Positions 50,924 to 58,356 of a DNA stretch of 64,000 bases are shown here, in pieces; positions within the stretch are counted from its first letter, which is position 1, and every line of letters begins with the position of its first letter. The DNA is taken from the NCBI GenBank assembly GCA_012838545.1, contig DUPC01000031.1:34148-98147 (forward strand), given 5' to 3'. The notes beneath the pieces were generated by a model. The model was given only the letters and a program-made list of their open reading frames with translations, searched no databases and was not told where the DNA came from. The stretch is from Acholeplasmataceae bacterium (GTDB taxonomy: Bacteria > Bacillota_I > Bacilli_A > ML615J-28 > CAG-313). A program made the translations under genes and the position numbers.

Positions 50924-50952
50924 CCCGGGGGTTTAAAAGCCCCCTTTTTTTA
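50924..50952 (+). terminator. intrinsic terminator after PFOR
   Basis: GGGGGtttaaaagCCCCC hairpin followed by a T-run. Confidence 0.6.
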
Positions 50953-51103
50953 TTCTTAAAAAATTGCGTTGGCTTTTTTTAAAAAAAAATAATAAGCAGA
51001 AAAATTAATTGATTTGTTATTTTTTCTTGTTTCGTGTATAATATGGCTATATATAGTCTTATGGCTGTTAAATGAGATATTTAGGACAAAGGAGGTCCAA
51101 AAG

Positions 51104-51397
51104 ATGTTAAAAAGAAAAATTGTCGCAGTTACGCCGCTTGTGGCAACTTTAGTGTTTTTATTGCTTGGGTTTATTTGGGAGGCATGGCATCCGGGTTGGA
51201 TAGTATTTTTGTCAATTCCAATCGTTGGCACAATTGAGAAAATAACCCGTAAAAATATGAAAGCCAAGATTACTTCTTTAACGTTTCTTTTTTGCTTGAT
51301 TACATTCTTTATTTTAGGTTTCGCTTGGGGTGCTTGGCATCCGGGATGGCTTGTGTTCTTTTTGATACCGATTGTGTCGACACTAGTCTATTCGTAG
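51104..51397 (+). CDS. small membrane protein with an internal tandem repeat (97 aa)
   Basis: The RBS AAAGGAGG lies 8 nt before ATG 51104. It contains two copies of G(F/A)W.AWHPGW.VF..IPIV.T, each a TM hairpin. The ORF track's upstream extension lacks an RBS. Confidence 0.55.
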   Translation: MLKRKIVAVTPLVATLVFLLLGFIWEAWHPGWIVFLSIPIVGTIEKITRKNMKAKITSLTFLFCLITFFILGFAWGAWHPGWLVFFLIPIVSTLVYS

Positions 51398-51406
51398 GAT
51401 AGAGAA

Positions 51407-52219
51407 ATGGAACCGTCAAGAAACGATCGACAACTTAACTACGCTTTAAAGAAGAACAAACCGCGCCTTTTATTTCCCATCCTGAATACAGTTTTTGCGG
51501 TTGCGATAGCGGTATTTTTAACGGTTGTCGCGATTAAACAAAAACAACCTGTGTGGGTTTATTTTGTCATTTTTCTCTTTTTGGTGATTTATCCTTTAAG
51601 TAGTTGGTATAACAGTTATTTTTCCAAAAAATATGCCCGAAAAAAAATCTACAACGTTCAAGAAGAAGCCGAACAGATGTTACAATATTCCAAGCATTTG
51701 ATCCACAGAACCAAATATCAATTGACCGAAGAAAGCCGCTTAGCTTTTTTTGTGAATTTCACGGATACAATTAATGAACAAAAGGTAAGCTTCAACAATA
51801 AGACCAAAGAGTTCGAACCGTTAAGCATTGAAAAGAACAAAAAACTTGCGCTTTTAACGATTGGTTTATCGTTTGCGGGGGCGGCGATTGATCCGACCTC
51901 CAAAGAGGTGAAAGGAATCATGGGAATGGTTCCGTGTTCGATTTGGGTTAAGAAAAAACTAAGCCCGCCTCTGGCAGAGCCGGGAACGGTATTGGTTGAT
52001 TTTGGCGATTTTGCGGTGGAGGGGGAAGTTATTTTCCAATATCGCAAAAAGGAAGATATCTATTACGATTCCAAAAGCGGTTGGCTTTGCTTTGGATCAC
52101 GCAAACTTACCAAATTGGATGAAGCGGTAAAAATCGCTGATGAGGTTATTTTGGTTGTTCGAAACAACGATTTGGTATCCATTTGGGTAAAGATTAAAGA
52201 AAACATGGTTTTTAGTTAA
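51407..52219 (+). CDS. membrane-anchored hypothetical protein (270 aa)
   Basis: A gap of 9 nt separates it from the previous gene. An N-terminal TM hairpin is followed by a ~190-aa soluble domain, and a terminator follows. No family could be assigned. Confidence 0.5.
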   Translation: MEPSRNDRQLNYALKKNKPRLLFPILNTVFAVAIAVFLTVVAIKQKQPVWVYFVIFLFLVIYPLSSWYNSYFSKKYARKKIYNVQEEAEQMLQYSKHLIHRTKYQLTEESRLAFFVNFTDTINEQKVSFNNKTKEFEPLSIEKNKKLALLTIGLSFAGAAIDPTSKEVKGIMGMVPCSIWVKKKLSPPLAEPGTVLVDFGDFAVEGEVIFQYRKKEDIYYDSKSGWLCFGSRKLTKLDEAVKIADEVILVVRNNDLVSIWVKIKENMVFS

Positions 52220-52239
52220 AAACAACCCCAAAAGAAATT

Positions 52240-52277
52240 AAGAGGAAGTCAAAAAAGGGCTTCCTCTTATTTGTTTT
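52240..52277 (+). terminator. intrinsic terminator after the two-gene membrane cassette
   Basis: AAGAGGAAG...CTTCCTCTT followed by a T-run. Confidence 0.55.
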
Positions 52278-52343: not shown

Positions 52344-53678
52344 ATGAAAACAATTTTTGCCAAAATAATTATTGCTTTTTTCATTTTTTTACTTATGCCA
52401 ACAGCTTTATCAGTGGATGCGGAAAGCGAGTACCTGTTTAAACAATTTTATTTTTCGGGATATCTTAATACCGAAAGTGTGGTAATGCTTGAATATAATA
52501 AAAACCATTTTGACAATAATGCTTTAACTTCCATTTGGTCAGGAATCGAAGAAATTTTGCTCAAAACGGAAAGAAACTTTTCAATCTCCCAAACACCTTA
52601 TATGGCCAGTTACAAAATTGATAAGTCCAAATTGATGTTAATCAATGAACGAAGCGGAACCGGCGAAAAAACAACCGTCGACCAAGATTTTATCGATTTA
52701 ATAAAATTGGCGGTTGAAGTAGCAGAAGCCACCAACGGAGGGTTCGATCCCACGATTGGACCGCTTACGACCCTATGGAAAATTTCCGAATTGTCCGAGT
52801 ACTGCCGAACCGACAGCATGGATTATGATGCGGAACGCTGCGAAATACCTACGGATGATGAAATTAACAAAGCTATACAAAAAATAGATTACACTTCAAT
52901 TGAAATCGATGAAACAGAAATGACCGTTTATTTGCCGAATCCTGGTATGAAACTGGATTTAGGCGCAATCGCCAAGGGGTTTGCTGCAGACAAGGTTACC
53001 GAATATCTAATCAGCCAAGGATTTCACTTTTTTATGATTAGTCTCGGAGGAAATGCCTATAACTACGGCGAAAGCATACTCTATCCCGGCAAAAGCGAAA
53101 CTGTATTAACCAATCCTTTTGGCGGCGATTATTTGTTAAAACTTTTCGGGAATTCCCAAACCATTGTAACATCCGGTGTTTACGAACGTTACATCGAAGT
53201 AGGCACAGATATATATCACCATCTGTTAAATCCTAAAACTGGTTATCCTTTTGACAATAATTTAATGTCCGTGTCAATTGTTGTGGATTACAAAGAAGGC
53301 TTTTATGCTTCGGCGTTTGCTGATGCGTTTGCCACCGGTATTTTTGCCCTTGGCTTGGAAGAAGGCTTAGCCTATGGGGAAAGCCGGCCTGACATGGAAG
53401 CGATCGCCGTTACGAAAGACAAAAAAGTATACGCCACGAGTAACCTTGATTTTAAAGCTGAAAAAGGATTGACAGAAGACTTTGAGTTATATGTGGGCGG
53501 AGAAAAGATAGATTTAAAACCGGTGCCGGTTGATCCGACCGACCCCGAGGATCCCTCGCCATATGATCCAACGCAGGATTTATTGATTGCCTTAATATTT
53601 ATCGTAATCGGTTTTGGTGCAACCGTTTTGTTAGTATATACTTTAAGAAAACCTAAGAATAAAACAAAAGAGGAATAA
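52344..53678 (+). CDS. apbE: FAD:protein FMN transferase (ApbE/Ftp family) with signal peptide and C-terminal TM anchor
   Basis: ApbE core motif LDLGAIAKGFAADKV. There is an N-terminal signal peptide and a C-terminal hydrophobic segment LLIALIFIVIGFGATVLLV. The stop lies 2 nt before sufC. Confidence 0.75.
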   Translation: MKTIFAKIIIAFFIFLLMPTALSVDAESEYLFKQFYFSGYLNTESVVMLEYNKNHFDNNALTSIWSGIEEILLKTERNFSISQTPYMASYKIDKSKLMLINERSGTGEKTTVDQDFIDLIKLAVEVAEATNGGFDPTIGPLTTLWKISELSEYCRTDSMDYDAERCEIPTDDEINKAIQKIDYTSIEIDETEMTVYLPNPGMKLDLGAIAKGFAADKVTEYLISQGFHFFMISLGGNAYNYGESILYPGKSETVLTNPFGGDYLLKLFGNSQTIVTSGVYERYIEVGTDIYHHLLNPKTGYPFDNNLMSVSIVVDYKEGFYASAFADAFATGIFALGLEEGLAYGESRPDMEAIAVTKDKKVYATSNLDFKAEKGLTEDFELYVGGEKIDLKPVPVDPTDPEDPSPYDPTQDLLIALIFIVIGFGATVLLVYTLRKPKNKTKEE

Positions 53679-53680
53679 AT

Positions 53681-54538
53681 ATGTCCATATTGAAAATAAA
53701 AAACCTTCGCGTTTCGGTTGAAGGCAAAGAAATCTTAAAAGGAATCGACCTAGAAATAAAAACCGGGGAATTCCATGTTATCATGGGGCCCAACGGAACC
53801 GGAAAATCAACGCTTGCTTCGACCATTATGGGACACTTTAAATACGAAGTAACCGATGGCGAAATTGATTTGGACGGCGAAAACCTGTTGGAAATACCGG
53901 TAGACAAACGTTCCCGAAAAGGCTTGTTTTTAGCCATGCAATACCCAAGCGAAATCAGCGGGGTAACGAATGCGGATTTCATCAAGACGGCTCTTCAGGC
54001 GCGTCTTCCGGAAGGCGAACATATACCGCTTTTCAAATTTATCAAAACGCTTGATAAAGCAAGCAATGAGTTGAAAATGCACAGCGATTTGCCACACCGA
54101 TATGTCAACGTCGGTTTTTCTGGCGGTGAAAGAAAACGCAACGAAATTTTGCAAATGAAAATCTTGAAACCGAAATTTGCTATCCTGGATGAAATCGATT
54201 CTGGTCTGGACGTCGATGCTTTGCGGATTGTGGGTGAAAACGTAAGTTCCATGAAAAACAGCGACTTCGGTGCTTTAATCATTACTCACTACGAAAGACT
54301 TTTGGATTACATTGATGTCGATTGTGTCCATGTCATGCTGGACGGACGAATAGTAAAATCAGGCGGAAAAGAACTGATTGCCCAAATCGATGAAAAAGGC
54401 TATGACTGGATAAAAGACGAAGTCGGTTTGGTTGACGAACCAATCAATGTTATCGGAAAAGTAAGCGTAGGCACATGCGCCGTCAAAAACGTCTTGGATA
54501 CGGGAAATGGTACCAATGGCAACAATAAAAATCGATAA
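53681..54538 (+). CDS. sufC: Fe-S cluster assembly ATPase SufC
   Basis: Walker A GPNGTGKST and the ABC signature FSGGERKR. Confidence 0.93.
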   Translation: MSILKIKNLRVSVEGKEILKGIDLEIKTGEFHVIMGPNGTGKSTLASTIMGHFKYEVTDGEIDLDGENLLEIPVDKRSRKGLFLAMQYPSEISGVTNADFIKTALQARLPEGEHIPLFKFIKTLDKASNELKMHSDLPHRYVNVGFSGGERKRNEILQMKILKPKFAILDEIDSGLDVDALRIVGENVSSMKNSDFGALIITHYERLLDYIDVDCVHVMLDGRIVKSGGKELIAQIDEKGYDWIKDEVGLVDEPINVIGKVSVGTCAVKNVLDTGNGTNGNNKNR

Positions 54539-55295
54539 ACCCGCACCAAATCCCATCGTTATCGAGGATAGCGACGAGAAGCAATTAATTCATGTTTTGC
54601 CCTTACAAAACGCCACCCTTTATCATAAGAATAATAACGGTATTAAGCATGTAATCATTACTTTGGAAAAAGCCGCCAAGTTAACATATCTTCTGTGGCA
54701 AAAAGCAGGCGAACTAAATGTTCGTTATGATATATATTTAAAACAAGACGCTGAGCTTACCTTTTATTCGATGACTTCTTCCAACGAAAACATTTTGATG
54801 AACCCCACGGTTTACTTGCAGGAACAAGGTGCCAAAGTTCAAATCATGAATGTCTTTTTGGCTTTAGGCAAAGCGGAAGTGTCTTGCGATTCGAATATCT
54901 TGCACGAACAAGGCAGTACCATCAGCAACCACGAAAGTTATATCATTGCTTTGGACCAAGCGGTTGTCAAAGTCAACAATAATTCGAAAATTGTAAAAGG
55001 TGCTAAAGGAAGCAATGCCAATCAAGTGACTAAGGGGCTTAACATCGGCGACAATAGTCAAATAATAGCCGACCCTAATCTGTTTATCGAGGAACACGAT
55101 GTCATCGCCCACCACGGTGCCGCAATCGGTTCGTTGAACAAAGACGAATTGTTCTATTTGATGAGCCGCGGTTTAACCGAAGAACAAGCCTCCAAAATCA
55201 TCATTATGGGGTTCTTGCAACCGTTGCTTGACCACATAACCGATGAATTAACCAAAACAGAAATCAAAGAGGATTTCGAACATAAATTAAAGTAG
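54507..55295 (+). CDS. sufD: Fe-S cluster assembly protein SufD (short form, 262 aa)
   Basis: Beta-helix repeats. The C-terminal motif [14 protein letters not shown] is shared with SufB. Confidence 0.8.
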   Translation: MVPMATIKIDKPAPNPIVIEDSDEKQLIHVLPLQNATLYHKNNNGIKHVIITLEKAAKLTYLLWQKAGELNVRYDIYLKQDAELTFYSMTSSNENILMNPTVYLQEQGAKVQIMNVFLALGKAEVSCDSNILHEQGSTISNHESYIIALDQAVVKVNNNSKIVKGAKGSNANQVTKGLNIGDNSQIIADPNLFIEEHDVIAHHGAAIGSLNKDELFYLMSRGLTEEQASKIIIMGFLQPLLDHITDELTKTEIKEDFEHKLK

Positions 55296-56510
55296 GTGAT
55301 ATTTTTGTTAAATAAATCGATTAAAAACGATTTTCCCGTTTTAGTCAATAACCCCGATTTATGTTATTTGGACAGCGGGGCTACTTCGCTAAAAATAAAA
55401 GCCGTGATTGACAAGATGAAGGAATATTACGAATATTACGGCGTCAATATCCATCGCGGCGTCTATCAATTGAGCCATCAGGCAACTACCGAATACGAAG
55501 AAACAAGAGACGTTGTGGCTAGGTTCATCAATGCCAAACCCGAAGAAATCATTTACACCAAAGGAACTACCAACGCTTTAAACATGGTAGCTTCCATCTT
55601 AAGCAAAACTTTATCCTCGGGAGACGAAATCATTGTTTCGGAACTCGAACACCACAGCAGCGTCCTTCCTTGGCAACATATTGCGGCAGAGAAGGGATTG
55701 ATGCTTCGCTATGTCGATTTAACTGTCGATGGCAGGATTACTTTAGAAAACTTCAAAGCAACAATATCACCGAAAACCAAAGTCGTGGCCATTACATATG
55801 TTTCCAATGTAATGGGTTATATTACCCCTTTAAAAGAAATCATCCAAGAAGCCCATAAAGTTGGGGCGGTAGTGATTGTGGATGCGGCGCAAGCGGCTCC
55901 TCACATTAAAATCGATGTAAAAGATTTGGATTGCGACTTTTTGGCGTTTTCCGCTCATAAAATGCTGGGACCGACCGGTTTTGGCATTCTATACGGAAAA
56001 ATGCGGATATTGGATTATTTGGATCCTTATGAATACGGAGGCGATATGAATGACGACGTTTGTTTGTTTGAAGCAACATATCGCGATGTACCGTACAAAT
56101 ATGAAGCGGGAACCATGCCGATTGCCGAAGCGATTGCCTTTAAAGAAGCCATCAAATATATAGAAAAAATCAAAATAGATAAAATTCACGAACATGAAAA
56201 AGCCTTAATCGCTTATGCAATGCCTAAACTTTTGGCAATCAAAGGAGTCGAAGTATATAATCCGACAACGGATACCGGAATCATCGCCTTCAATATCAAA
56301 GGCGTCCATCCCCATGATGCGGCTACGCTGTTTGACCAAAACAATGTCGCGCTTCGTGCCGGCCACCACTGTGCGCAGTTAATCACCAAGTGGTTGGGGG
56401 TTTCCGGAACTTTACGAGCAAGTTTTTACCTTTACAATACGATTGAAGATGTCGATCGCTTCCTTGAAGCGGTGAAAGCAACCGTTTCGTTTTTTGAAAG
56501 GATTGGATAA
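55296..56510 (+). CDS. sufS: cysteine desulfurase SufS
   Basis: PLP fold type I. The SufS motif RAGHHCAQ (catalytic Cys) is present. Confidence 0.9.
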   Translation: MIFLLNKSIKNDFPVLVNNPDLCYLDSGATSLKIKAVIDKMKEYYEYYGVNIHRGVYQLSHQATTEYEETRDVVARFINAKPEEIIYTKGTTNALNMVASILSKTLSSGDEIIVSELEHHSSVLPWQHIAAEKGLMLRYVDLTVDGRITLENFKATISPKTKVVAITYVSNVMGYITPLKEIIQEAHKVGAVVIVDAAQAAPHIKIDVKDLDCDFLAFSAHKMLGPTGFGILYGKMRILDYLDPYEYGGDMNDDVCLFEATYRDVPYKYEAGTMPIAEAIAFKEAIKYIEKIKIDKIHEHEKALIAYAMPKLLAIKGVEVYNPTTDTGIIAFNIKGVHPHDAATLFDQNNVALRAGHHCAQLITKWLGVSGTLRASFYLYNTIEDVDRFLEAVKATVSFFERIG

Positions 56511-56513
56511 AAA

Positions 56514-56972
56514 ATGAGAACCGTTGAACAATTGTATCGCCAAGTTATCATGGAACACTACAAAAACCCCCGAAATAAAGGTTTAAAAGAAGAAGCGGGA
56601 TATAAGAAATTAAGACTAAAAAATCCTAGCTGCGGCGACGACGTAACAATTCAAATTAACTTAAAAGACGGAAAATTATTGGATATCCGCCATGTCGGAA
56701 CGGGCTGTTCCATCTGCTGCGCATCGGCTTCAATCATGAGCGAATTAATGAAAAACAAAACCACTGCCGAAGCTAATGCTTTAATCGAAGATTATTATCA
56801 TTTGATAAAGGGCGAAGAACCAAGCGACATGGACGCTTTGGAAGAAGCGCAAGTCTTTTCGGGAGTTGCGCAATTCCCTGCCCGCACTAAATGTGCGACC
56901 ATTGCCTGGCGCGCCCTTGATACTTTAATCAACGGCAGTTCGGAAGAGGATAACGAATATGAGCAATCTTGA
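56514..56972 (+). CDS. sufU: sulfur-transfer / scaffold protein SufU
   Basis: NifU/IscU-like with Cys residues in [15 protein letters not shown] and KCATIA. Confidence 0.88.
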
Positions 56973-58356
56973 TAAAATCGGTTCAGAATACAAATACGGT
57001 TTTAAAACCGAAGCTCCTACCGTATTCGATACCGGAAAAGGGATATCCGAAGAAATAGTCAAAAAGATATCCGCTTTTAAAAATGAACCAAAGTGGATGG
57101 AAGAAAATCGTTTAAAAGCTTACCATGAATTTGCCAAAATGAGATGGCCATCCTTTGGTCCCGATTTATCCAGCTTGACTTTTGATGAATATATCTATTA
57201 CATCAAATCAAGCGAAAAAACTGTAAATCGCTGGGACGAAGTGCCCGAATCAATTAAAAAAACCTTTGACCAATTGGGTATCCGGGAAGCCGAACAAAAG
57301 TATTTGGCAGGTGTATCCACCCAATTCGAATCAGAAGTCGTATATCATAACACCATCAAGGAATTGGAAGAATTGGGTGTGTTATTCTGCGACACCGACA
57401 CTGCGGTAAGGTTATACCCTGATTTGGTCAAAGAATATTTCGGAAAAATCGTTCCTGCCGCGGACAATATGTTTGCCGCACTGAATACCGCTGTTTGGAG
57501 CGGGGGTTCGTTTATCTATGTTCCCAAGGGAGTAAAAATCGAAAAACCGCTACAATCATACTTTAGAATCAACACCGAACAAATGGGGCAATTCGAAAGG
57601 ACGTTAATCATTGTCGACGAAGGCGCAAGTCTCCACTATGTTGAAGGCTGCACCGCGCCGATTTATTCCAAAGATTCGCTTCATGCGGCGGTGGTGGAGA
57701 TTTATGTCAAAAAAGGCGGGTATTGTCGTTATTCCACCGTGCAAAATTGGTCTAAGAATATTGTCAATTTGGTAACCAAAAGAACTTGGGTGGAAGAAAA
57801 CGCCCAAATGGAATGGATTGACGGTAACATCGGTTCCAATATCAACATGAAGTACCCCGCTTGTATTTTGGCAGGTCCTTATGCCAAAGGCACAACCATT
57901 TCGATTGCCTTCGCCAGCGACGGCCAAATTCAGGATACCGGCGCCAAGATGATTCATCTGGCCCCATATACTTCCAGCCAAATTATCTCCAAATCGATTT
58001 CGCGCGGAACCGGGAAAGTCAATTACCGGGGGCTTGTGCGTCATAACAAAAACGCACTATATGCTAAAAGCCATATTGAATGCGATACTTTGATGCTTGA
58101 CGAAAAGTCTTTAAGCGACACCATTCCTACCAATATCGTGCAAAACTCAACATCTTTCATCGAACATGAAGCCTCGGTCTCCAAAGTCAACGAAGAACAA
58201 TTGTTCTACCTGATGAGCAGAGGTTTGACCGAAGAACAGGCAACGGAAATGATCATCATGGGATTCATCGAACCGTTTGCCAAAGAACTTCCGATGGAGT
58301 ATGCGGTAGAGTTGAACCAATTAATCAAATTGGAAATGAAAGGTTCAATCGGTTAA
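56959..58356 (+). CDS. sufB: Fe-S cluster assembly protein SufB
   Basis: 465 aa. SufB beta-helix with the C-terminal [13 protein letters not shown] motif. Confidence 0.93.

What the first reader, a model, noticed from the sequence alone, without database searches (positions are those of the whole stretch)
51014..52277. Self-contained two-gene membrane cassette with an internally duplicated small protein
The cassette lies between the PFOR terminator and the apbE-suf operon. It has its own promoter (about 51015-51042) and terminator (52240-52277). Gene 1 (51104..51397, 97 aa) is essentially two copies of a ~30-aa TM hairpin. The hairpin motif G(F/A)W(E/G)AWHPGW(I/L)VF(L/F).IPIV(G/S)T is conserved, as LVFLLLGFIWEAWHPGWIVFLSIPIVGT and FFILGFAWGAWHPGWLVFFLIPIVST. 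Gene 2 starts 9 nt later (270 aa). It has a TM hairpin plus a ~190-aa soluble domain with no recognisable motifs. The strict WHPGW repeat suggests a functional site for ion or ligand binding at the membrane interface. The cassette could be a small transport, sensor or stress module of unknown type.
Basis: seen in the sequence. Interest (0 to 1): 0.5.

Follow-up and report, generated by a model that had tools for sequence, protein, structure and literature searches.

The report
Two-gene membrane docking/sensor cassette
Two small membrane proteins made from one transcript: one is a free-standing copy of a widespread but unnamed membrane "sensor hairpin" normally attached to gene regulators, and the other tethers a toxin-immunity-type binding domain to the inside of the membrane, so the pair most likely holds or senses something at the membrane and does not transport anything.

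Summary
Window 51104-51397 (97 aa) and 51407-52219 (270 aa) form a self-contained unit. It has a promoter-like site, a strong Shine-Dalgarno sequence, flanking terminators and a 9-nt gap between the genes. Gene 1 is a significant internal duplication (z about 20). Both genes are under purifying selection (dN/dS about 0.1).

Neither protein matches a curated family, but both belong to real families.
- Gene 1 is a two-hairpin, stand-alone member of a large family (at least 1,441 clusters) of WHPGW membrane-hairpin repeats. Among the environmental loci retrieved with this query, most copies are fused to a HAAS domain behind a PadR regulator. Some are fused to XRE-type HTH domains, and one to a bactofilin.
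- Gene 2 is a two-helix anchor carrying a cytoplasmic beta-sandwich. Its only structural match is the immunity protein CdiI(EC869). Its free ~150-aa relatives sit in polymorphic-toxin islands.

In sister lineages the pair is the distal half of a tight four-gene operon: DUF4004(BacR)-bactofilin-gene1-gene2.

Best reading: the membrane end of a sub-membrane docking or regulator-sequestration module. The pairing holds in only one clade. WHPGW is not conserved in the nearest operon-linked orthologs. The function is inferred, not shown. Moderately interesting; a new variant of a known kind.

The parts
50927..50944 (+). Intrinsic terminator of the upstream PFOR gene; the 5' boundary of the cassette
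   Evidence: 7-bp stem with 5 GC pairs, followed by TTTTTTTATT.
51014..51042 (+). Sigma-70-type promoter-like site (TTGTTA-17-TATAAT)
   Evidence: 10 of 12 matches. The number of such sites in the region is not above the shuffle expectation, so this is a consensus match only.
51090..51095 (+). Shine-Dalgarno AGGAGG, 8 nt upstream of the gene 1 ATG
   Evidence: Read directly from the sequence.
51104..51397 (+). Gene 1: 97-aa four-helix membrane protein made of two WHPGW hairpins; a stand-alone member of the unnamed WHPGW hairpin-repeat family
   Evidence: homologs; at least 1,441 clusters with the profile; repeat z about 20; model pLDDT 85.2; dN/dS 0.09.
51107..51235 (+). Hairpin repeat 1 (residues 2-44); WHPGW at 51185-51199
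   Evidence: alignment; one search turn at residues 25-29.
51257..51385 (+). Hairpin repeat 2 (residues 52-94); WHPGW at 51335-51349
   Evidence: alignment; one search turn at residues 76-79.
51407..52219 (+). Gene 2: 270-aa protein with termini predicted N-in and C-in; a two-helix membrane anchor, a long juxtamembrane helix and a cytoplasmic beta-sandwich
   Evidence: 29 homologs, mean column identity 60%; model pLDDT 86.3; charge distribution; dN/dS 0.11.
51470..51616 (+). Gene 2 membrane hairpin (about residues 22-70), flanked by the most conserved motifs KNKPxLxxPIxN and SSWYNSYFSKK on the cytoplasmic side
   Evidence: invariant P19, P24, I25, N27, W67, Y68, F72, S73, K74; helices 22-45 and 49-98.
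51704..52201 (+). Gene 2 cytoplasmic beta-domain (about residues 100-265), immunity-protein-like with the CdiI(EC869) fold
52239..52269 (+). Intrinsic terminator of the cassette; the 3' boundary, separating it from apbE-suf
   Evidence: 12-bp stem, then TTTGTTTTAA.

Best explanation
The cassette encodes two small cytoplasmic-membrane proteins that together form the membrane end of a sub-membrane docking or signalling module.

Gene 1 is a free-standing, two-hairpin copy of a membrane-embedded module. In other bacteria that module is the transmembrane part of regulators that work by holding a transcription factor or scaffold at the membrane: HAAS-PadR dyads, XRE-type HTH one-component proteins, and bactofilin-BacR(DUF4004) pairs. 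Its tryptophan-rich turns lie at the outer face of the membrane, where they could report the state of the outer leaflet or envelope.

Gene 2 is anchored by its own helical hairpin. It presents to the cytoplasm a beta-sandwich that descends from a family of toxin-immunity proteins, which are tight protein binders. Here it is proposed to capture a cytoplasmic partner at the membrane.

In sister lineages the two genes are translationally packed behind bacR and a bactofilin gene. In this lineage those two genes are not within the 64-kb window, and gene 1 has lost the roughly 45-aa N-terminal cytoplasmic extension that the type B orthologs carry.

Shown: family memberships, architectures, topology logic, operon structures, and one fusion with bactofilin. 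Inferred: that gene 1 and gene 2 interact, what gene 2 binds, and that the output is regulatory.
For: (1) The gene 1 profile finds at least 1,441 clusters.

(2) In 71 metagenome loci with a called WHPGW gene, 41 proteins carry an N-terminal HAAS domain and 4 carry HTH_3. At least 26 upstream neighbours are PadR and 3 are bactofilin. L008 shows PadR followed by HAAS::WHPGWx4.

(3) The N-terminal HAAS and HTH domains must be cytoplasmic, and the positive charges lie at the N-terminus (3 K/R) and the inter-hairpin loop (5 K/R). Both place the WHPGW turns outside the cell.

(4) Operons of the form DUF4004-bactofilin-gene1-gene2 with gaps of -8 to +12 nt occur in L003-L006, L013-15, L017, L019 and L020. 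In L005 a promoter-like site precedes the DUF4004 gene and a terminator sits at the gene 2 stop.

(5) L098 encodes a single protein: a bactofilin-like domain (E 3e-33) fused to gene 1 (46% identity, E 2e-30).

(6) Published experiments show that B. subtilis BacR (DUF4004) binds DNA, is held at the membrane by the bactofilins BacE and BacF, and moves to the nucleoid on vancomycin treatment (PMC13649987). HAAS-PadR has been proposed as a membrane-signal to transcription-factor dyad fused to 'uncharacterized 6TM, 4TM, 2TM domains' (PMC11237479).

(8) On the gene 2 tree, all 12 members of the A+B clade keep gene 1 immediately upstream.
Against: - No regulator, bactofilin, HAAS or PadR gene lies in the 64-kb window, so in this organism the proposed output is missing or encoded elsewhere.
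- Gene 2 occurs without gene 1 in 26 of 33 species loci. Gene 1 relatives occur without gene 2 in 79 of 80 metagenome loci.
- L072 and L093 carry an unrelated fourth gene in place of gene 2.
- No interaction between gene 1 and gene 2 was modelled or measured.
- The L098 fusion comes from a contig with only about 3x coverage.
- The BacR mechanism was shown in B. subtilis, which lacks these two genes next to yhbDEF.
Confidence: 0.45

Rival explanations
1. Gene 2 is a true immunity protein, vertically fixed in the lineage. It is tethered to the inner face of the membrane and neutralises an incoming interbacterial toxin as the toxin enters. Gene 1 is an accessory membrane partner or simply a co-transcribed neighbour.
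For: - The only structural relative is the immunity protein CdiI(EC869).
- Stand-alone homologs lie in a C. butyricum island reading Toxin-deaminase, Imm3, orphan genes, Ntox50 fragment, IS66.
- One stand-alone homolog is a triple tandem that follows a HEPN-like protein.
- Homologous candidate toxin cassettes sit directly upstream in two unrelated loci (58% identity).
- The organisms that carry gene 2 live in dense gut communities.
Against: - There is no toxin gene, mobile element or immunity array beside gene 2 in the window or in any of the 33 species loci. Its neighbours are PFOR, ApbE, suf and lipoproteins.
- It keeps the same chromosomal position across a clade whose members have diverged to 30-80% identity. 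Conservation is high (mean column identity 60%, dN/dS 0.11), unlike typical immunity genes.
- The best-conserved residues are the juxtamembrane motifs.
Confidence: 0.2
2. The pair has a structural or membrane-organising role with no signalling output, for example hairpin proteins that organise lipid or protein domains or stabilise the membrane of a reduced-genome bacterium.
For: - In the window, gene 1 has no cytoplasmic domain, and the hydrophobic part of the return helix of each hairpin is short.
- Many family members are stand-alone with no constant neighbours (L007, L009, L010).
- No regulator lies in the window.
Against: In the retrieved sample, family members that carry extra domains are mostly attached to transcription-factor-linked domains: HAAS 41, HTH 4, bactofilin 1. 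Gene 2 carries a protein-binding fold, not a lipid-binding one.
Confidence: 0.15
3. Gene 2 acts in Fe-S cluster, flavin or redox biology at the membrane, linked to the neighbouring suf, apbE and PFOR genes.
For: - Gene 2 lies next to sufCDSUB in nearly all 33 species loci, even though ApbE, PFOR, lipoproteins and PckA are shuffled around it.
- One stand-alone-domain relative is fused to flavodoxin-like and 2x[4Fe-4S] domains (P0281).
- One Cys is invariant across the membrane-anchored and free forms.
Against: - A terminator and a separate promoter-like site divide gene 2 from apbE-suf in the window and in L005.
- Other genes intervene in several lineages.
- There are no metal- or cofactor-binding motifs, and the single Cys sits in a hydrophobic strand motif, GW(L/I)C(F/I)G.
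- The adjacency could be inherited synteny within one clade.
Confidence: 0.1
4. The pair is a small transporter or ion channel, with WHPGW as the ion or ligand site.
For: - It is multi-helix and membrane-embedded, with a repeated His-containing motif at the interface.
- There is a weak, sub-threshold similarity to one AcrB/RND TM segment in 6 of 36 relatives.
Against: - No transporter family matches.
- His-Pro-Gly is replaced in the operon-linked orthologs.
- The family's fusions are to regulators, not to transport domains.
- There are no polar or charged residues within the helices that could line a pore (sequence).
Confidence: 0.05

Closest known systems
HAAS-PadR-like wHTH signalling dyads (Ravi et al. 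2024, PMC11237479); DUF1700/HAAS membrane proteins
   Same: The gene 1 hairpin repeat is the same module that forms the C-terminal membrane region of many HAAS proteins encoded directly after PadR. Examples are P0048 in L008, and 41 HAAS plus 26 PadR among 71 metagenome loci.
   Different: Gene 1 in the window has no HAAS domain and no PadR neighbour. It is only the membrane module, with two hairpins instead of 3-6. The paper does not name this TM module and refers only to 'uncharacterized 6TM, 4TM, 2TM domains'.
BacR (YhbD, DUF4004)-bactofilin BacE/BacF partner-switch module of Bacillus subtilis (PMC13649987)
   Same: In sister lineages gene 1 and gene 2 are the third and fourth genes of a packed operon that starts with a DUF4004 gene and a bactofilin gene. 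One protein fuses the bactofilin-like domain to gene 1.
   Different: The window has neither DUF4004 nor bactofilin. B. subtilis yhbDEF has no gene 1 or gene 2 equivalent described. No experiment links these membrane proteins to BacR.
CdiI(EC869) immunity protein, PDB 7VMC chain C (PMC9071432), and polymorphic-toxin immunity proteins in general
   Different: Identity to CdiI is only 11%, with no sequence-profile link. Gene 2 is membrane-anchored, has no adjacent toxin, is vertically inherited at a fixed locus and is strongly conserved.
LiaI/LiaF-TM, PspC and Toastrack envelope-stress modules
   Same: The general logic is shared: small multi-TM proteins combined with a sub-membrane beta-rich platform and a transcription factor.
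   Different: Neither protein has detectable sequence similarity to PspC, LiaI-LiaF-TM or Toastrack models. The beta-rich partner here is a bactofilin or a CdiI-like sandwich, not Toastrack.

Membership tests
WHPGW hairpin-repeat membrane module (unnamed; not in Pfam or NCBIfam) | Tandem TM hairpins of about 45-50 aa with the core G-F-x4-W-H-P-G-W-[LIV]-[VI]-F-L-x-I-P | tested here: met
   Two copies are present, with invariant G22, W28, W32, F35, P39 and G72, W78, H79, P80, W82, P89.
WHPGW hairpin-repeat membrane module (unnamed; not in Pfam or NCBIfam) | Significant profile-level homology to other members | tested here: met
   Single-sequence hits reach 1e-9 to 1e-19 at 36-55% identity. The profile finds at least 1,441 clusters and at least 550 metagenome loci.
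HAAS-PadR signalling dyad | HAAS domain (PF22564) in the membrane protein | tested here: not met
   Gene 1 has no HAAS hit, and the 97-aa protein has no room for one.
HAAS-PadR signalling dyad | Stand-alone PadR-like wHTH gene immediately upstream | tested here: not met
   The upstream gene is PFOR, followed by a terminator.
BacR(DUF4004)-bactofilin module | DUF4004 and bactofilin genes in the same operon | tested here: not met
   tblastn of the type B DUF4004 and bactofilin proteins against the whole window gave nothing better than E 0.48. The feature is met in sister lineages. The rest of this genome could not be searched.
Polymorphic-toxin immunity proteins (CdiI(EC869)-like fold) | Fold similarity to a solved immunity protein | tested here: met
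Polymorphic-toxin immunity proteins (CdiI(EC869)-like fold) | Sequence homology to proteins encoded in toxin-immunity loci | tested here: met
   Stand-alone ~150-aa homologs score E 1e-8 to 1e-20. P0193 lies in the C. butyricum Toxin-deaminase/Imm3/Ntox50 island.
Polymorphic-toxin immunity proteins (CdiI(EC869)-like fold) | Cognate toxin gene immediately upstream, or location in a variable toxin-immunity island | tested here: not met
   Neighbours are gene 1, PFOR and ApbE-suf in the window, and housekeeping genes or lipoproteins in all 33 species loci.
Polymorphic-toxin immunity proteins (CdiI(EC869)-like fold) | Neutralises a toxin | not testable with these tools
   Requires co-expression or binding experiments.
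   No Pfam, NCBIfam or PHROG hit to these families at E <= 1 for either protein, nor for 36 gene 1 relatives.

The most novel reading that the evidence does not exclude
Gene 1 and gene 2 are the missing membrane receptor of the bactofilin-BacR partner switch. Under this reading:
- The WHPGW hairpins sense envelope or outer-leaflet perturbation.
- An immunity-protein fold has been domesticated as a membrane-tethered clamp that holds the bactofilin-regulator complex, or another cytoplasmic client.
- The WHPGW module would then be a general, previously unnamed membrane sensor domain shared by three different systems that sequester transcription factors: HAAS-PadR, XRE-HTH and BacR-bactofilin.
Probability: 0.3. 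Interest if true: 0.6.

Novelty: new variant of a known kind. Interest (0 to 1): 0.42.

Why it matters
Two practical points follow.

First, this work delineates a large, unnamed membrane domain family. It has at least 1,441 protein clusters and is common in Acholeplasma-like and other Bacillota. In the retrieved sample it is mostly the transmembrane part of HAAS-PadR systems. Naming and modelling it would annotate many 'hypothetical' proteins. It would also give a concrete sensor candidate for a signalling system that so far has only been predicted.

Second, the four-gene operons and the bactofilin::hairpin fusion suggest which proteins might tie bactofilins and the regulator BacR to the membrane. 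The recent B. subtilis study left that question open.

The membrane-anchored, vertically inherited copy of an immunity-protein fold is also a candidate example of such a binder being reused for a housekeeping role.

None of this is established for the organism in the window, which is uncultured.

Tried and rejected
- Curated libraries: Pfam, NCBIfam, PHROGs and PADLOC gave no significant family for either protein. Per-member scans of 35 stand-alone beta-domain proteins and 36 gene 1 relatives also gave nothing. The exception is a short sub-threshold ACR_tran similarity (6 of 36, best E 2e-6, below the gathering score), which I treat as hydrophobic-segment resemblance.
- PDB sequence searches with three profiles found nothing meaningful.
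- The afdb50 fold library was unavailable.
- Pattern-based locus retrieval with the divergent stand-alone beta-domain alignment failed.
- Rfam found no RNA element in or around the cassette.
- A literature search for the motif string found nothing relevant.
- The candidate toxin cassette upstream of the stand-alone relatives has no Pfam family.
- The P-type ATPase next to the A. palmae homolog has no heavy-metal CPC motif, so a metal link was not pursued.
- The 127-aa ORF starting at TTG 51014 and the antisense ORFs (50956-51267 and 51718-52047) were rejected as mechanical ORFs.
Full report
OBSERVATION

The region holds two same-strand ORFs. Gene 1 runs from ATG 51104 to 51397 (97 aa), with AGGAGG 8 nt upstream. 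Gene 2 runs from 51407 to 52219 (270 aa) and starts 9 nt after the gene 1 stop.

A promoter-like site (TTGTTA-17-TATAAT, 51014-51042) precedes the pair. Terminator-like hairpins bracket the unit at 50927-50944 and 52239-52269. The promoter match is only a consensus match in AT-rich DNA (4 sites found, 4.6 expected). Terminators are enriched (4 found, 1.2 expected).

The two halves of gene 1 align without gaps over 43 residues, scoring 137 against 25.9 +/- 5.5 for shuffles (z about 20). Identical proteins exist in public data: P0001 (97 aa, on 72 contigs, the longest 706 kb, named 'MAG: Bacilli bacterium') and P0017. Against the closest species-level relative (L012, Bacillales bacterium UBA1427), dN/dS is 0.09 for gene 1 and 0.11 for gene 2.

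GENE 1

No curated library recognises gene 1. A single-sequence search finds 16 relatives. A profile search finds at least 1,441 clusters, and a metagenome scan finds at least 550 loci from gut, marine, lake, sludge and sediment samples.

The unit is a TM hairpin of about 45-50 aa with the core G-F-x4-W-H-P-G-W-[LIV]-V-F-L-x-I-P. Proteins carry 2 to 6 copies. The AlphaFold model (pLDDT 85.2) is a four-helix bundle with the W..WHPGW residues forming each tight turn.

Topology follows from two independent arguments. Lys and Arg cluster at the N-terminus and in the inter-hairpin loop. In fused relatives the N-terminal domains are DNA-binding or HAAS domains, which must be cytoplasmic. The Trp-rich turns therefore sit at the outer face of the membrane.

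Architecture and context were tested on 71 metagenome loci with a called WHPGW gene. These come from the 80 best matches to this query, so they are not a random sample of the family. Of them, 46 proteins have a long N-terminal region: 41 are HAAS (PF22564) and 4 are XRE-type HTH_3. At least 26 immediate upstream neighbours are PadR, typically overlapping by 4-11 nt, and three neighbours are bactofilins.

L008, from a complete Mycoplasmatota genome, shows PadR, then HAAS::WHPGWx4, then an MFS gene. The paper that defined HAAS-PadR as an alternative two-component system mentions only 'various uncharacterized 6TM, 4TM, and 2TM domains' fused to HAAS (PMC11237479). So this module is used by a described system but is itself unnamed.

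Stand-alone copies like the one in the window also occur with no constant partner. In Alteracholeplasma palmae one follows a P-type ATPase, and others are isolated.

GENE 2

The model (pLDDT 86.3) shows a short N-terminal helix and a two-helix membrane hairpin whose second helix continues as a long cytoplasmic helix. An all-beta domain follows, from about residue 100 to 265. The N-terminus and the post-TM2 segment are Lys/Arg-rich and the external loop is about 8 residues. I therefore infer that both termini are cytoplasmic.

The most conserved residues are the cytoplasmic juxtamembrane motifs KNKPxLxxPIxN and SSWYNSYFSKK, together with G-x-x-P-x-S-x-W and YYD-x-K-x-GW-L-C-F-G in the beta-domain.

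An exhaustive profile search finds 348 proteins. About 30 are full-length. Most of the rest are ~150-aa soluble proteins without signal peptides that match only the beta-domain, and some are tandem duplications or triplications.

Genomic context supports the structural lead independently. In Clostridium butyricum the stand-alone member P0193 lies in an island with this order: Toxin-deaminase (628 aa), Imm3, several small orphan genes, P0193, an Ntox50 fragment, IS66. The ORF directly upstream of P0193 and the ORF upstream of P0189, in an unrelated contig, are 58% identical. They look like orphan toxin C-terminal cassettes. The triple-tandem P0170 follows a HEPN-like protein.

The gene 2 C-domain therefore belongs to an unnamed immunity-type family.

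THE PAIR AND ITS SURROUNDINGS

A scan of 185,579 species genomes finds gene 2 in 33. All are uncultured, reduced-genome Bacilli or 'Mollicutes'-type MAGs, mostly from guts. There are four arrangements:

- A: PFOR | gene 1, gene 2 | ApbE-suf. This is the form in the window, L001, L012 and L050.
- B: DUF4004, bactofilin-like, gene 1 (with a ~45-aa N-terminal extension), gene 2 | (ApbE) suf.
- C: PFOR | one or two small lipoproteins | gene 2 | suf.
- D: a Gx-type membrane protein, ApbE, gene 2 | lipoproteins | suf.

A gene 1 profile detects gene 1 in 7 of the 33 loci. On a gene 2 tree, A and B form one clade in which the pairing is universal (12 of 12). The C+D clade lacks it. Only 1 of 80 WHPGW loci from metagenomes carries gene 2.

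In type B the four genes are separated by -8 to +12 nt. In L005 they are bracketed by a promoter-like site and a terminator. In L072 and L093 the DUF4004-bactofilin-gene 1 core is followed by an unrelated fourth gene.

In L098 a single 317-aa protein joins a complete bactofilin-like domain (E 3e-33) to gene 1 (46% identity to the window protein). The junction is compact, not a read-through spacer. The contig has only about 3x coverage, so this needs confirmation.

In every type B ortholog WHPGW is replaced by W-x-W-x-W. His-Pro-Gly is therefore not required in the gene 2-linked subfamily.

INTERPRETATION

A September 2026 study shows that the B. subtilis DUF4004 protein BacR binds DNA. It is held at the membrane by the bactofilins BacE and BacF, and it moves to the nucleoid on vancomycin treatment (PMC13649987).

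Three points line up with that mechanism:
- The WHPGW module is the membrane part of HAAS-PadR and XRE-HTH proteins.
- It sits in one operon with BacR and bactofilin.
- In one case it is fused to the bactofilin-like protein.

The best-supported reading is that gene 1 is a membrane-embedded anchor or sensor for sub-membrane assemblies that sequester regulators. Gene 2 adds a membrane-tethered protein-binding domain of immunity-protein ancestry.

In the window's lineage the regulator genes are not adjacent; nothing matched in 64 kb. Gene 1 has also lost its N-terminal extension. I give this mechanism 0.45.

Rivals:
- Gene 2 is a true, fixed immunity protein (0.2). The arguments against it are its fixed housekeeping locus, its strong conservation and the absence of any toxin gene.
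- A purely structural membrane role (0.15).
- A link to Fe-S or flavin biology (0.1). This is suggested by the near-invariant adjacency to sufCDSUB, even though the other neighbours are shuffled, and by one flavodoxin/ferredoxin fusion (P0281). Against it, terminators separate the units and the adjacency may be inherited synteny.
- A transporter or channel (0.05).

VERDICT

The feature is real and coherent. It is not a member of PspC, holin, LiaI/LiaF or any other curated family. It is best described as a new variant of membrane-tethered regulator-docking modules, built from two unnamed domain families. Function in this organism remains inferred. Interest is moderate: useful for annotation and for the bactofilin-BacR and HAAS-PadR questions, but not a resolution of a long-standing problem.

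Noticed in passing
L098:112-1065 (metagenome contig ERZ842401 NODE-23119, about 3x coverage): A single 317-aa ORF fuses a complete bactofilin-like domain (residues 1-186) to a two-hairpin WHPGW/WHPTW protein (residues 187-315). This looks like a Rosetta-stone fusion, but the low coverage means it needs confirmation.
   Followed up: partly
L045:5531-5986 and L011:3-389: Homologous ORFs (58% identity over 135 aa) lie directly upstream of stand-alone members of the gene 2 beta-domain family. They end in ...RPYVENG...PIPDPGG.P.GLRWDVPG...WELV..KDKN.IVHFLFNSK and have no Pfam family. They are a candidate new toxin C-terminal cassette, with the beta-domain protein as cognate immunity.
   Followed up: partly
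Loci L012-L044 (33 species genomes); window 52344-58356: Gene 2 lies beside sufCDSUB in nearly every lineage, while ApbE moves from downstream to directly upstream of it and PFOR, small lipoproteins or PckA are inserted around it. Why gene 2 stays beside suf is unexplained.
   Followed up: partly
Protein P0281 (405 aa, Logan assemblies; no locus fetched): The immunity-like beta-domain is fused C-terminally to a flavodoxin-like domain and a 2x[4Fe-4S] ferredoxin-like region. That architecture is odd for an immunity protein, and it echoes the PFOR and suf neighbourhood of gene 2.
   Followed up: no
window 52344-53678 (ApbE): The window's ApbE is 444 aa. It has an N-terminal signal-like segment, a C-terminal Pro/Asp-rich linker (PVPVDPTDPEDPSPYDPTQD) and a terminal TM helix. 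Relatives in the other loci are ORFs of about 345-370 aa, several with a lipobox-like Cys, so this copy has a different anchoring.
   Followed up: no
L016, L021, L022, L032, L034, L037 (type D loci), about 1.1-1.7 kb upstream of gene 2: A conserved membrane protein of 167-173 aa (MKKE.K..A.L.I.I.LS.VLSYVDSLI...GIKLG.ANI) sits directly upstream of ApbE. From memory it resembles the Gx/heptaprenyl-diphosphate-synthase-component-I type of protein often found beside ApbE; this was not tested.
   Followed up: no
L016-L043, gaps flanking gene 2 (for example L029:5258-5620, L024:5158-5953, L037:6879-7283): At least two families of small (110-135 aa) predicted lipoproteins, with a signal peptide and lipobox Cys, recur beside gene 2 in the lineages that lack gene 1. 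In L029 one of them may be co-transcribed with gene 2.
   Followed up: no
Gene 1 residues 4-41 (window 51113-51226) and relatives P0013, P0014, P0100, P0106, P0151: There is a recurrent sub-threshold similarity of one hairpin to positions about 861-900 of the AcrB/RND (ACR_tran) profile (6 of 36 relatives, best E 2e-6). It is probably resemblance between hydrophobic segments.
   Followed up: partly
L072:1857-2627 and L093:3781-4608: In these DUF4004-bactofilin-gene 1 operons the fourth gene encodes an unrelated 256-275 aa soluble protein of unknown family instead of gene 2. The fourth position of the operon therefore appears to be exchangeable.
   Followed up: no
L007:1666-4366 (Alteracholeplasma palmae-like contig): A two-hairpin WHPGW protein (P0111) starts 17 nt after a 772-aa P-type ATPase that lacks the heavy-metal CPC motif. 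They may be co-transcribed.
   Followed up: partly
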